From NCBI RefSeq assembly GCF_044324785.1, contig NZ_CP172127.1: a stretch of 64,000 bases of DNA; one strand, 5' to 3'. A program made the translations under genes and the position numbers. Positions 1 to 45,374 of this stretch are shown here, piece after piece. Below the pieces are notes generated by a model that was not told the origin of the DNA, searched no databases, and saw only the letters and a program-made list of their open reading frames with translations. Every line of letters begins with the position of its first letter. The stretch's first letter is position 1. This DNA comes from Escherichia coli. Its GTDB lineage: Bacteria > Pseudomonadota > Gammaproteobacteria > Enterobacterales > Enterobacteriaceae.

Positions 1-240
1 CAAAATATCTCGATGGATCTCCCGGAAACCCTGCAAAGCCAGGCGATGCTGGAAAAACTGATGCAGACTCGCGTGCGTAACCTGCTGGCACAACCGGCAG
101 CGGGGACAACGGAAGCTAAACCTGCACCTGCACCTGCACCTGCACCTGCACCTGCACCTGCACCTGCACCTGCACCTGCACCTGCACCTGCACCTGCACC
201 GCAAGCTGATACTCCGGCAGCCGCGCCGCAAGGAGAATAA
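1..240 (+). CDS. hemX: HemX C-terminal part (5' end lies upstream of the window), ends in a Pro-Ala repeat
   Basis: Open frame from position 1 to TAA at 238-240; sits immediately upstream of hemY as in the hemCDXY operon. Identity rests on synteny and the recalled operon, not on a search. Confidence 0.8.
121..198. repeat. Perfect hexanucleotide tandem repeat (CCTGCA) x13 encoding (Pro-Ala)13 inside hemX
   Basis: Counted directly: 13 uninterrupted CCTGCA units in frame, flanked by GAAGCTAAA and CCGCAAGCT. Confidence 0.97.
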
Positions 241-242
241 CC

Positions 243-1439
243 ATGCTAAAAGTGTTATTGCTCTTTGTTTTGCTGATTGCGGGGATAGTGGTTGGCCCGA
301 TGATTGCCGGTCATCAGGGTTACGTGCTGATCCAGACCGACAACTACAATATTGAAACCAGCGTCACTGGCCTGGCGATTATTTTGATTCTGGCGATGGT
401 AGTGCTGTTTGCCATTGAGTGGCTACTGCGGCGGATCTTCCGCACTGGCGCGCACACCCGTGGGTGGTTTGTCGGACGTAAGCGTCGCCGTGCCCGTAAG
501 CAGACCGAACAGGCGCTGCTGAAACTGGCGGAAGGCGATTATCAGCAAGTTGAAAAGCTGATGGCGAAAAATGCCGATCACGCTGAACAACCGGTGGTGA
601 ACTATCTACTGGCTGCCGAAGCCGCGCAACAACGTGGTGATGAAGCACGCGCCAACCAACATCTGGAACGCGCAGCGGAGCTGGCCGGCAACGACACAAT
701 TCCGGTAGAAATCACCCGTGTACGTCTGCAACTGGCCCGTAATGAAAACCATGCAGCACGTCACGGCGTTGATAAGCTGCTGGAAGTTACGCCACGCCAT
801 CCGGAAGTATTACGTCTGGCGGAACAGGCGTATATCCGCACAGGTGCATGGAGTTCGCTGCTGGATATCATCCCATCAATGGCGAAAGCCCACGTTGGCG
901 ATGAAGAACATCGTGCAATGCTGGAACAACAGGCATGGATTGGCCTGATGGATCAGGCGCGCGCCGATGACGGTAGCGAAGGTTTGCGAAACTGGTGGAA
1001 AAACCAAAGCCGGAAAACGCGTCATCAGGTGGCGTTACAGGTGGCAATGGCGGAACATCTTATTGAATGTGACGATCATGATACTGCTCAGCAAATTATC
1101 ATCGACGGCCTGAAACGCCAGTATGATGATCGTCTGCTGCTGCCGATCCCGCGTCTGAAAACCAATAACCCGGAACAGCTTGAAAAAGTGCTGCGCCAGC
1201 AAATCAAAAACGTCGGCGATCGCCCGCTGTTGTGGAGCACACTGGGTCAGTCGCTGATGAAGCACGGAGAATGGCAGGAAGCATCGCTCGCCTTCCGCGC
1301 AGCGCTGAAACAACGTCCGGACGCCTACGATTACGCATGGCTTGCCGACGCGCTGGACAGACTGCACAAGCCGGAAGAAGCCGCAGCGATGCGTCGCGAT
1401 GGCTTGATGTTAACGTTGCAGAACAACCCGCCACAGTAG
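243..1439 (+). CDS. hemY: HemY, 398 aa inner-membrane TPR-like protein
   Basis: 398 aa ORF with N-terminal hydrophobic segments; length and position after hemX match E. coli HemY. Confidence 0.93.
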   Translation: MLKVLLLFVLLIAGIVVGPMIAGHQGYVLIQTDNYNIETSVTGLAIILILAMVVLFAIEWLLRRIFRTGAHTRGWFVGRKRRRARKQTEQALLKLAEGDYQQVEKLMAKNADHAEQPVVNYLLAAEAAQQRGDEARANQHLERAAELAGNDTIPVEITRVRLQLARNENHAARHGVDKLLEVTPRHPEVLRLAEQAYIRTGAWSSLLDIIPSMAKAHVGDEEHRAMLEQQAWIGLMDQARADDGSEGLRNWWKNQSRKTRHQVALQVAMAEHLIECDDHDTAQQIIIDGLKRQYDDRLLLPIPRLKTNNPEQLEKVLRQQIKNVGDRPLLWSTLGQSLMKHGEWQEASLAFRAALKQRPDAYDYAWLADALDRLHKPEEAAAMRRDGLMLTLQNNPPQ

Positions 1440-1486: not shown

Positions 1487-1693
1487 AAAAAAACGCCTGC
1501 TCTTATTACGGAGCAGGCGTTAAAACAGGTCTGTATGACAACAAGTGGGTGCTTCACTCAACGTTGTGTCCATGGTGTCTGATGAGGCATAAGCGACATC
1601 TGTCAGTGGACGATAAGCACCGTAAACGGCTCTGCGTCATTCCGGAGTTTATGAGGCACTAAGGCGAACATAAGAGATGGAATGAGCATCTAC
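1487..1693 (-). ncRNA. glmZ: GlmZ small RNA (about 207 nt) with intrinsic terminator at its 3' end
   Basis: Minus-strand sequence begins GUAGAUGCUCAUUCC and ends in a hairpin (stem 1493-1502 / 1511-1520) plus U7, matching the recalled GlmZ sequence; location between hemY and aslA matches the known locus. Confidence 0.8.
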
Positions 1694-5256: not shown

Positions 5257-5333
5257 TGGTCGGCGAGAGAGGATTCGAACCTCCGACCCACTGGTCCCAA
5301 ACCAGTTGCGCTACCAAGCTGCGCTACTCGCCG
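5257..5333 (-). tRNA. proM: tRNA-Pro (anticodon UGG)
   Basis: 77 nt; reverse complement reads CGGCGAGUAGCGCAGCUUGGUAGCGCAACUGGUUUGGGACCAGUGGGUCGGAGGUUCGAAUCCUCUCUCGCCGACCA; cloverleaf and anticodon loop read manually. Confidence 0.95.
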
Positions 5334-5375
5334 AAATACTGCTTTTTGAATTTTTAGTTCAATTCTTTAAAGTCG

Positions 5376-5462
5376 TGGTGCGAGGGGGGGGACTTGAACC
5401 CCCACGTCCGTAAGGACACTAACACCTGAAGCTAGCGCGTCTACCAATTCCGCCACCTTCGC
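5376..5462 (-). tRNA. leuT: tRNA-Leu (anticodon CAG), long variable arm
   Basis: 87 nt, 5' GCGAAGGUGGCGGAAUUGGUAGACGCG..., anticodon loop CUUCAGG, ends CCA. Confidence 0.95.
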
Positions 5463-5482
5463 ATTGTCACAACTTCTAATAA

Positions 5483-5559
5483 TGGGGTGGCTAATGGGAT
5501 TCGAACCCACGACAACTGGAATCACAATCCAGGGCTCTACCAACTGAGCTATAGCCACC
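5483..5559 (-). tRNA. hisR: tRNA-His (anticodon GUG) including the extra 5' G-1
   Basis: GUGGCUAUAGCUCAGUUGGUAGAGCCCUGGAUUGUGAUUCCAG...CCA read on the minus strand. Confidence 0.95.
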
Positions 5560-5616
5560 ACTACAAATCTTGTTACGCGGTATTACTACCACCGCAGCTC
5601 AAGCGCCGGGACTAAA

Positions 5617-5693
<77 letters not shown>

Positions 5694-40147: not shown

Positions 40148-40223
40148 TGGCAGGGGCGGAGAGACTCGAACTCCCAACACCCGGTTTTGGAGACCGGTGC
40201 TCTACCAATTGAACTACGCCCCT
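40148..40223 (-). tRNA. trpT: tRNA-Trp (anticodon CCA)
   Basis: AGGGGCGUAGUUCAAUUGGUAGAGCACCGGUCUCCAAAACCGGGUGUUGGGAGUUCGAGUCUCUCCGCCCCUGCCA on the minus strand. Confidence 0.95.
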
Positions 40224-40231
40224 AATTAGGG

Positions 40232-40308
40232 TGGCGGAACGGACGGGACTCGAACCCGCGACCCCCTGCGTGACAGGCAGGTATTCTAACCGACTGAACT
40301 ACCGCTCC
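40232..40308 (-). tRNA. aspT: tRNA-Asp (anticodon GUC)
   Basis: GGAGCGGUAGUUCAGUCGGUUAGAAUACCUGCCUGUCACGCAGGGGGUCGCGGGUUCGAGUCCCGUCCGUUCCGCCA on the minus strand. Confidence 0.95.
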
Positions 40309-40360
40309 ACCGAATTCTTTTACAACCACCGGTTTTATGACCGGCTTACTGCTTAATTTG

Positions 40361-40480
40361 ATGCCTGGCAGTTCCCTACTCTCGCATGGGGAGACCCCAC
40401 ACTACCATCGGCGCTACGGCGTTTCACTTCTGAGTTCGGCATGGGGTCAGGTGGGACCACCGCGCTACGGCCGCCAGGCA
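40361..40480 (-). rRNA. rrfC: 5S ribosomal RNA, 120 nt
   Basis: Reverse complement begins UGCCUGGCGGCCGUAGCGCGGUGGUCCCACCUGACCCCAUGCCGAACUCAG... and ends ...CUGCCAGGCAU. Confidence 0.95.
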
Positions 40481-40573
40481 AATTCTGTTTCATCAGACCG
40501 CTTCTGCGTTCTGATTTAATCTGTATCAGGCTGAAAATCTTCTCTCAATCCGCCAAAACAGCTTCGGCGTTGT

Positions 40574-43478
<2,905 letters not shown>

Positions 43479-43671
43479 TCACAACCCGAAGATGTTTCTT
43501 TCGATTCATCATCGTGTTGCAAAAATTTGAGAGACTCACGAACAACTTTCGTTGTTCAGTGTTTCAATTTTCAGCTTGATCCAGATTTTTAAAGAGCAAA
43601 TATCTCAAACATCACCCGAAGATGAGTTTTGAGATATCAAGGCAGGTGACTTTCACTCACAAACCAGCAAG

Positions 43672-43747
43672 TGGCGTCCCCTAGGGGATTCGAACCCCTG
43701 TTACCGCCGTGAAAGGGCGGTGTCCTGGGCCTCTAGACGAAGGGGAC
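43672..43747 (-). tRNA. gltU: Spacer tRNA-Glu (anticodon UUC)
   Basis: GUCCCCUUCGUCUAGAGGCCCAGGACACCGCCCUUUCACGGCGGUAACAGGGGUUCGAAUCCCCUAGGGGACGCCA on the minus strand. Confidence 0.95.
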
Positions 43748-43832
43748 GTATCAGTCTGCTTCGCAAGACGCCTTGCTTTTCACTTTCTATCAGACAATCT
43801 GTGTGAGCACTACAAAGAACGCTTCTTTAAGG

Positions 43833-45374
<1,542 letters not shown>

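What the first reader, a model, noticed from the sequence alone, without database searches (positions are those of the whole stretch)
121..198. Perfect (CCTGCA)13 tandem repeat encoding (Pro-Ala)13 near the HemX C-terminus
Thirteen uninterrupted copies of a hexanucleotide inside a coding region is an obvious substrate for replication slippage, and each slip stays in frame. That makes it a likely length-polymorphic linker between strains. I cannot say from memory how many units the reference HemX carries.
Basis: seen in the sequence. Interest (0 to 1): 0.45.

Follow-up and report, generated by a model that had tools for sequence, protein, structure and literature searches.

The report
Known E. 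coli typing repeat (CVN014) in hemX
The 13-copy six-base repeat at the end of the hemX gene is real and varies in length between E. coli strains, but it is the CVN014 marker that has been used for E. coli strain typing since 2007, so it is ordinary.

Summary
Observation confirmed. Window 121-198 is a perfect (CCTGCA)13 array. It is in frame and encodes (Pro-Ala)13, 13 codons before the hemX stop.

In 5,425 complete E. coli genomes the locus is always present and its length changes in steps of 6 bp. Alleles I fetched form an unbroken ladder of 2 to 14 perfect units, and K-12 has 2. One further strain has an in-frame deletion of the whole array. A systematic sample of 60 genomes gives a Nei diversity of 0.88, and 13 units lies in the rare upper tail.

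It is not new. The published CVN014 primers of the generic E. coli MLVA scheme match window 97-116 and 262-285 with no mismatch and bracket the array. The literature calls CVN014 the most variable locus of that scheme.

The word "linker" is not supported. The array lies after the Pfam HemX domain and only 13 residues follow it, so it is a C-terminal low-complexity tail.

The most likely mechanism is replication slippage that is close to neutral. This is inferred, not measured.

One small addition: the same hexamer array sits at the same site in E. albertii, E. whittamii and several Citrobacter species (4-14 units). Salmonella lacks it.

Novelty: already known. Interest: low.

The parts
1..240 (+). 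3' end of hemX: the last 79 codons plus the stop TAA at 238-240. The window starts inside the gene.
   Evidence: Translation. Annotation of matching genomes as hemX. A full-length orthologue with the same allele is 415 aa and matches Pfam HemX PF04375 at E=4e-108 and NCBIfam PRK10920 at 722 bits against a cut-off of 313.
121..198 (+). Perfect (CCTGCA)13 array encoding (Pro-Ala)13, which is HemX residues 377-402 in the 415-aa form. This is the variable part of VNTR locus CVN014.
   Evidence: Allelic ladder of 2-14 units.
97..116 (+). Binding site of the published primer CVN014-R (GCAGCRGGGACAACGGAAGC), 0 mismatches.
   Evidence: Primer tables in PMC8143711 and PMC8261245. Mapping in the window.
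262..285 (-). Binding site of the published primer CVN014-F (TCCCCGCAATCAGCAAMACAAAGA), 0 mismatches. It lies inside the start of hemY. The predicted amplicon is 97-285, 189 bp.
199..237 (+). Non-repeat end of the HemX tail, [13 protein letters not shown]. It carries the two flanking SNP sites (GCT/GGT and ACT/GCT). The final ...PQGE is invariant across Escherichia, Citrobacter and Salmonella.
230..235 (+). AAGGAG, the likely Shine-Dalgarno sequence of hemY. It lies inside the last hemX codons, 7 nt upstream of the hemY ATG, and 31 nt separate it from the array.
   Evidence: Read directly from the sequence. That it functions as a ribosome-binding site is inferred. Its predicted pairing does not change with unit number.
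243..1439 (+). hemY coding sequence (398 codons plus TAG). Its frame and start are unaffected by changes in array length.

Best explanation
The feature is VNTR locus CVN014 of the generic E. coli MLVA scheme. It is a coding hexanucleotide microsatellite in the 3' tail of hemX. The array most likely gains and loses whole CCTGCA units by slipped-strand mispairing during replication. This mechanism is inferred from the pattern of variation and was not measured. Each step adds or removes one Pro-Ala, so the reading frame, the HemX stop codon and the hemY ribosome-binding site and start just downstream are all preserved. The array encodes a Pro/Ala-rich C-terminal tail that lies beyond the conserved HemX domain. 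The tail tolerates 0 to at least 14 units, so length changes appear to be nearly neutral and accumulate quickly. The result is a highly polymorphic strain marker rather than a switch. The 13-unit allele in this window is simply a long, uncommon allele of that marker.
For: Shown here:
- The array is perfect and in frame.
- The published CVN014 primers flank it with 0 mismatches and occur nowhere else in the window.
- The locus is present in 5,425 of 5,426 complete E. coli genomes, with match spans differing in 6-bp steps.
- Fifteen fetched alleles give every count from 2 to 14. All are uninterrupted except one entry annotated as frameshifted. The flanks differ at only 2 SNP sites.
- Each of the three flanking haplotypes carries several unit counts.
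- At least 60 genomes whose 147 nt of flank are 100% identical to the window carry 9 or 8 units rather than 13. The array therefore changes faster than the neighbouring bases.
- The sampled allele spectrum runs from 2 to 14 with Nei diversity 0.88.
- An in-frame null allele lacks the whole array, so the array is dispensable.
- The array lies outside the Pfam domain, which covers residues 130-363.
- Predicted pairing of the hemY ribosome-binding region is identical for 0-20 units.

From papers:
- It has 9 alleles, a range of 4-15 repeats and Nei diversity 0.83 in non-O157 STEC (PMC3519732).
- It shows the largest variation in Swedish ESBL isolates (PMC5217547).
- ST131 isolates that are identical at the other loci carry CVN014 alleles 2-11 (PMC3407997).
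Against: Neutrality is inferred and not tested. No fitness or HemX-function data exist for the different lengths. No mutation rate was measured here, and I found none for this locus. The array is kept perfect at the same site across Escherichia and Citrobacter. That could reflect selection for a Pro-Ala tail rather than turnover alone. The allele census is a systematic sample of 60 genomes, not a full count. The collection is also biased; for example, it holds many K-12 laboratory derivatives with 2 units. Repeat numbers reported by MLVA laboratories may be offset from true unit counts.
Confidence: 0.93

Rival explanations
1. The Pro-Ala tract is a selected, length-tunable rigid spacer. HemX is a membrane-anchored, coiled-coil protein distantly related to Mic60. 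In this reading the tail length sets how far the conserved C-terminal end reaches, and different lineages are selected for different lengths.
For: A Pro/Ala-rich tail ending in ...APQGE is conserved across Escherichia, Citrobacter and Salmonella. The same hexamer array persists, always perfect, in E. albertii, E. whittamii and several Citrobacter species, with 13-14 units in two of them. HemX is described as a distant Mic60 homologue (bioRxiv 10.1101/2022.06.14.496148).
Against: Only 13 residues follow the tract, and no domain follows it. The invariant ...PQGE end overlaps the hemY Shine-Dalgarno sequence and stop codon, so its conservation can be explained at the DNA level. A natural allele lacks the array entirely. 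Salmonella has no array. Closely related isolates and identical flank haplotypes carry many different lengths. That is the pattern expected from drift, not from lineage-specific optima.
Confidence: 0.05
2. It is a contingency (phase-variation) locus: changes in repeat number switch hemX or hemY expression on and off.
For: A long, perfect, highly mutable repeat inside an operon resembles the contingency loci of Haemophilus and Neisseria.
Against: The unit is 6 nt, so every slip stays in frame. All 2-14-unit alleles keep the same stop and the same hemY start. The single frameshifted entry is a 2-nt loss in one assembly, annotated as a pseudogene, and may be a sequencing error. Predicted pairing of the hemY ribosome-binding site is unchanged for 0-20 units.
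Confidence: 0.01
3. The 13-unit count is an assembly or sequencing artefact of this window.
For: Short-read assemblers can mis-size tandem repeats.
Against: A 78-bp array is shorter than typical reads. Identical 13-unit alleles exist in two independent complete genomes, and 12- and 14-unit alleles also exist. Published fragment sizing finds alleles of up to 15 repeats.
Confidence: 0.01

Closest known systems
CVN014, a VNTR locus of the generic E. coli MLVA (GECM-7/GECM-10; Lindstedt et al. 2007, as cited in PMC3407997, PMC3877011 and PMC5217547)
   Same: It is the same locus. Both published primers match the flanks exactly. The unit is 6 bp. The allele range and diversity found here (2-14 units, D=0.88) agree with published values (4-15 repeats, D=0.83; 'most variable locus').
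   Different: Nothing of substance. None of the open-access papers I could search names the gene: no paper in the held library mentions both hemX and MLVA for E. coli. The original 2007 paper is not held, so I could not check whether it states that the locus lies in hemX.
Other in-frame 6-bp coding VNTRs used for typing enterobacteria (for example Salmonella Typhimurium STTR5 and the 6-bp loci of E. coli O157 MLVA schemes)
   Same: They are also hexanucleotide arrays inside genes, change in whole in-frame units, are highly polymorphic and are used as epidemiological markers (general background in PMC5183578; that STTR5 and the O157 loci have 6-bp units is from my own knowledge).
   Different: They lie in different genes. 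This array is also shared at an orthologous site across two genera.
Ala/Pro-rich spacers in bacterial proteins (the OmpA hinge, the lipoyl-domain linkers of pyruvate dehydrogenase E2, the Pro-rich spacer of TonB); comparison from my own knowledge
   Same: The composition is similar (alternating Pro and Ala), and an extended, non-globular conformation is expected.
   Different: Those tracts connect two folded domains. Here no domain follows, only 13 residues. I did not test structure. The AlphaFold model was of too low confidence to use.
Phase-variable contingency loci (simple-sequence repeats of 1, 2, 4, 5 or 7 nt in Haemophilus, Neisseria and Campylobacter); comparison from my own knowledge
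   Same: Both are a mutable tandem repeat within a coding region, changed by slippage.
   Different: The unit length here is a multiple of three, so there is no frameshift and no on/off switching.

Membership tests
VNTR locus CVN014 (generic E. coli MLVA) | Both published primers bind convergently around the array. | tested here: met
   CVN014-R matches at 97-116 (+) and CVN014-F at 262-285 (-), each with 0 mismatches and a single site in the window.
VNTR locus CVN014 (generic E. coli MLVA) | The unit count differs between E. coli isolates, giving a high diversity index. | tested here: met
   A 2-14-unit ladder was read directly. A systematic sample of 60 genomes gives D=0.88. Published D is 0.83 with a range of 4-15.
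VNTR locus CVN014 (generic E. coli MLVA) | The locus is present in essentially all E. coli (no null amplification). | tested here: met
   5,425 of 5,426 genomes match. The literature reports no null alleles for CVN014. One strain, NCTC11023, has a deleted array and a SNP in the primer site.
Slippage-driven microsatellite | Length changes occur in whole units, arrays are uninterrupted, and several lengths occur on identical flanks. | tested here: met
Slippage-driven microsatellite | An elevated, length-dependent mutation rate per generation. | not testable with these tools
   This needs mutation-accumulation or fluctuation experiments. The only indirect support is that ST131 isolates differ at this locus alone.
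Phase-variable contingency locus | Repeat changes shift the reading frame or alter promoter spacing. | tested here: not met
   The unit is 6 nt. All alleles keep the same frame, stop and hemY start. Predicted pairing of the ribosome-binding site is unchanged.
Inter-domain Pro/Ala linker | Folded domains lie on both sides of the tract. | tested here: not met
   The Pfam HemX domain ends at residue 363. The tract is residues 377-402 of 415, and only 13 residues with no domain follow.
HemX protein family (Pfam PF04375 / NCBIfam PRK10920) | A significant full-length match to the family profile. | tested here: met
   PF04375 at E=4.2e-108. PRK10920 at 721.7 bits against a cut-off of 313. The test used the 415-aa orthologue from strain 135, because the window holds only the last 79 codons.
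Uroporphyrinogen-III C-methyltransferase (the name in the genome annotation) | A recognisable methyltransferase domain. | tested here: not met
   The Pfam scan finds only HemX plus weak coiled-coil or membrane matches and no methyltransferase family. No solved structure is related by sequence. The literature calls the protein poorly characterised.

The most novel reading that the evidence does not exclude
The Pro-Ala tract may not be merely tolerated. It could be maintained by selection as an extensible spacer at the end of a Mic60-like inner-membrane protein. Its persistence as a perfect hexamer array at the same site in Escherichia and Citrobacter, with repeated expansion to 13-14 units in separate lineages, would then reflect function, for example reach across the periplasm or tuning of an interaction through the conserved C-terminal end.
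Probability: 0.05. Interest if true: 0.45.

Novelty: already known. Interest (0 to 1): 0.1.

Why it matters
The locus has mainly practical value: it is a fast-evolving marker already used to subtype E. coli. This work ties the anonymous marker name CVN014 to a specific place, the Pro-Ala tail of HemX just upstream of hemY. It also shows true unit counts in complete genomes, with K-12 at 2 and a range of 0-14. These counts can help to calibrate in-silico MLVA. Biologically, the result says that the HemX C-terminal tail tolerates very large changes in length. It also shows that a coding microsatellite can persist at one site across two genera. None of this changes how HemX or haem synthesis is understood.

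Tried and rejected
1. I tried to count 13-unit alleles exactly by querying with a short amplicon-sized sequence. It failed. BLAST split the matches into two overlapping pieces inside the repeat, so alleles with 8 or 9 units scored 100% identity and 100% coverage and filled the top of the list. The frequency of 13 units is therefore known only as 0 of 60 in the systematic sample, plus 2 genomes found by chance.
2. I looked up the 415-aa protein by exact sequence. It is not in the protein collection. The members listed for the E. coli HemX cluster are 375-399 aa (the full-length ones 391-399 aa) and added little.
3. The AlphaFold2 model built from a shallow 16-sequence alignment had a mean pLDDT of 42.6. 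That is too poor for a fold search or for statements about the tail, so I did not use it.
4. Solved structures gave no sequence relative.
5. The original Lindstedt 2007 paper is not held. Full-text searches for hemX with MLVA, and for the repeat unit with VNTR, found nothing relevant to E. coli.
6. I tested the idea that repeat number changes hemY translation through mRNA structure. Predicted pairing of the Shine-Dalgarno-to-AUG region was identical for 0-20 units, so I rejected it at the level of prediction.
7. I considered phase variation and rejected it, because the unit is a multiple of three.

Full report
**1. The observation.**
Window 121-198 reads CCTGCA thirteen times without a single deviation. 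Tandem Repeats Finder reports 120-200, period 6, 13.5 copies, 100% matches and score 162. No other array in the 64-kb window exceeds three copies. A regular-expression scan found no other perfect array of four or more copies for units of 2-12 nt. In frame 1 the region translates as ...[11 protein letters not shown](PA)13[13 protein letters not shown], with the stop codon at 238-240. An ATG at 243 opens the next gene.

**2. The genes.**
A megablast of window 1-520 against 5,426 complete E. coli genomes matched 5,425 of them. Every match was annotated hemX followed by hemY. The window holds only the last 79 codons of hemX. I therefore took the full gene from strain 135, which carries the same 13-unit allele. 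Its product is 415 aa. It matches Pfam HemX (PF04375) over residues 130-363 at E=4e-108. It also matches NCBIfam PRK10920 at 722 bits against a cut-off of 313. The array corresponds to residues 377-402, and 13 residues follow it. It is therefore a C-terminal tail beyond the conserved domain, not a linker between two domains.

The annotation name 'uroporphyrinogen-III C-methyltransferase' is a legacy label. No methyltransferase family matched. A review calls HemX poorly characterised (PMC2704936). A preprint describes it as a distant Mic60 homologue that lacks the mitofilin domain.

**3. Polymorphism.**
In one search the subject span that matches query 1-520 ranged from 454 to 526 bp in steps of 6, plus one of 427 and one of 488. 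I fetched one genome for each span and cut out the sequence between the two primer sites.

- The result is a complete ladder of 2 to 14 units.
  - 2 units: K-12 W3110
  - 3 units: ATCC 11775
  - 4 units: O103:H2 12009
  - 5 units: 2010C-3347
  - 6 units: N3
  - 7 units: O157:H7 F6667
  - 8 units: CFT073
  - 9 units: strain 98221
  - 10 units: strain 19KM2415N
  - 11 units: O104:H4
  - 12 units: O104:H21
  - 13 units: strain 135 and S1bESBLb
  - 14 units: PEC199
- Every array in the ladder is perfect. The flanks differ only at two SNP sites just downstream (GCT/GGT and ACT/GCT).
- K-12 HemX is 393 aa and ends [19 protein letters not shown].
- The 427-bp case, NCTC11023, is an in-frame deletion of the whole array plus 15 nt. 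It leaves [10 protein letters not shown], so the array is dispensable.
- The 488-bp case, FCI5, has lost 2 nt inside the array and is annotated as frameshifted. I suspect an assembly error but did not test this.

**4. Allele spectrum.**
The 'spread' listing is a systematic sample: every ~90th record of the ranking. Converting spans to unit counts gives the following.

| Units | 2 | 3 | 4 | 5 | 6 | 7 | 8 | 9 | 10 | 11 | 12 | 13 | 14 |
|---|---|---|---|---|---|---|---|---|---|---|---|---|---|
| Genomes | 10 | 1 | 4 | 10 | 9 | 6 | 5 | 3 | 4 | 3 | 2 | 0 | 1 |

- The median is 6 units and Nei diversity is 0.88.
- The window's 13 units is a rare, long allele.
- The 2-unit class is inflated by K-12 laboratory derivatives.

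**5. The array changes faster than its surroundings.**
- Each of the three flanking haplotypes carries several lengths.
- In one search, all 60 listed genomes have 147 nt of flank 100% identical to the window, yet carry 9 units (37 genomes) or 8 units (23 genomes) rather than 13.
- The closest complete genome over 25 kb, strain N3 at 99.4% identity, has 6 units.

**6. It is a known marker.**
I recalled the primer sequences of locus CVN014 of the generic E. coli MLVA and then confirmed them in two papers that print the primer table (PMC8143711 and PMC8261245). The primers are F TCCCCGCAATCAGCAAMACAAAGA and R GCAGCRGGGACAACGGAAGC. In the window they match once each with no mismatch, at 262-285 (-) and 97-116 (+). 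They bracket the array and predict a 189-bp product. None of the other nine loci of the scheme lies in this window.

The literature describes CVN014 as follows.
- It is the most polymorphic locus in non-O157 STEC, with 9 alleles, a range of 4-15 repeats and Nei diversity 0.83 (PMC3519732).
- It shows the largest variation among Swedish ESBL isolates (PMC5217547).
- It is the locus at which ST131 isolates that are otherwise identical differ, with alleles 2-11 (PMC3407997).

My independent estimate from genomes agrees with these figures. No open-access paper in the held library links the name hemX to E. coli MLVA. The 2007 source paper is not held.

**7. Mechanism.**
What is shown:
- All changes are whole 6-nt units.
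- All alleles stay in frame with the same stop.
- The hemY Shine-Dalgarno sequence (AAGGAG at 230-235) and the ATG at 243 lie outside the array and are unchanged.

What is inferred:
- The changes arise by slipped-strand mispairing at replication.
- They are nearly neutral.

Supporting detail:
- The unit contains the palindrome TGCA. As single-stranded DNA, both strands can fold into imperfect hairpins, at -14.9 and -18.1 kcal/mol for 78 nt. Such hairpins could stabilise slipped intermediates. This is a plausible contribution, not a demonstrated one.
- I tested one alternative, that unit number alters hemY translation through mRNA structure. Partition-function folding of constructs with 0-20 units gave an identical pairing probability for the Shine-Dalgarno-to-AUG region in every case.
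- Phase variation is excluded, because the unit length is a multiple of three.

**8. Beyond E. coli.**
- HemX tails of Citrobacter and Salmonella are also Pro/Ala-rich, and all end in ...PQGE. At the DNA level that end overlaps the hemY ribosome-binding site.
- Citrobacter gillenii and C. rodentium carry 4 copies of the same hexamer.
- C. sedlakii instead has a 9-nt unit (GCACCTGCC). Its proteins of 394, 397 and 400 aa differ by one Ala-Ala-Pro each.
- Salmonella has no array.
- I scanned one genome per bacterial species for three or more units placed 10-40 nt before the conserved end of hemX. It found the array in eight species representatives.

| Species representative | Units |
|---|---|
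| E. albertii | 6 |
| E. whittamii | 6 |
| Escherichia sp. E1V33 | 7 |
| A separate species-level 'E. coli' representative | 7 |
| Citrobacter sp. FP75 | 6 |
| Citrobacter sp. NCU1 | 9 |
| Citrobacter sp. R56 | 13 |
| Citrobacter sp. Awk 4 | 14 |

The microsatellite is therefore older than E. coli. It has stayed perfect at one site in two genera and has expanded to 13-14 units more than once. This is the only point that goes a little beyond what I found in the literature. It leaves a small opening for the idea that the tract is selected rather than merely tolerated.

**9. Verdict.**
The feature is the already known VNTR CVN014, an ordinary and near-neutral coding microsatellite. Interest is low.

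Noticed in passing
L022-L029; L017 and L019: The same CCTGCA array sits at the orthologous hemX site in other species. E. albertii has 6 units, E. whittamii 6, Escherichia sp. E1V33 7, and several Citrobacter species have 4, 6, 9, 13 and 14. It is always perfect. Salmonella enterica (L020) has no array.
   Followed up: partly
L018 and proteins P0007, P0010, P0006: Citrobacter sedlakii has a different repeat at the same place: a 9-nt unit, GCACCTGCC (Ala-Pro-Ala in the reading frame). Conspecific HemX proteins of 394, 397 and 400 aa differ by one Ala-Ala-Pro each. This looks like an independent VNTR in the same tail.
   Followed up: partly
L014 111-140 (E. coli NCTC11023): This is a natural null allele. 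Relative to the window it is 93 bp shorter: the whole array and the next 15 nt are missing, in frame, leaving ...[11 protein letters not shown]. There is also a G-to-A change inside the CVN014-R primer site.
   Followed up: yes
L015 (E. coli FCI5): hemX is annotated as frameshifted because 2 nt are missing inside the array (CCTGCACCGCCCTGCA). This may be an assembly error rather than a real pseudogene.
   Followed up: no
window 1-240; L001 593-1840: hemX is annotated everywhere as 'uroporphyrinogen-III C-methyltransferase'. The protein matches no methyltransferase family and no solved structure. The name appears to be a legacy label from 1988.
   Followed up: partly
proteins P0001 and P0080: Two database HemX variants carry internal duplications. 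One E. coli-like protein of 485 aa repeats about 70 residues and has an interrupted tract, [16 protein letters not shown] Salmonella Berta protein of 413 aa repeats 24 residues that start inside the transmembrane segment. Whether these are real or assembly artefacts is unknown.
   Followed up: no
window 1-25000: The best match among 5,426 complete E. coli genomes is only 99.4% identical (strain N3), and the next best are 98.5% or lower. No genome matches window 1-520 exactly. The source strain therefore belongs to a lineage poorly represented in that collection, possibly Shigella, which the collection does not include.
   Followed up: no
window 229-245: In folds of mRNA fragments of about 250-370 nt, the hemY Shine-Dalgarno region is predicted to be fully paired (probability 1.00) whatever the repeat number. 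That would fit translational coupling of hemY to hemX. I did not examine which bases pair with it.
   Followed up: no
window 1487-1693 (-): The GlmZ (SraJ) small RNA gene lies just downstream of hemY (Rfam RF00083, 218 bits).
   Followed up: no
window 5257-5693 (-) and 40148-45374 (-): The window holds a tRNA cluster (Pro-Leu-His-Arg) and a complete rRNA operon (16S, tRNA-Glu, 23S, 5S, tRNA-Asp, tRNA-Trp). Together with aslAB, the enterobacterial common antigen (ECA) gene cluster, rho, trxA and rhlB, this is the usual gene order for this part of the E. coli chromosome.
   Followed up: no
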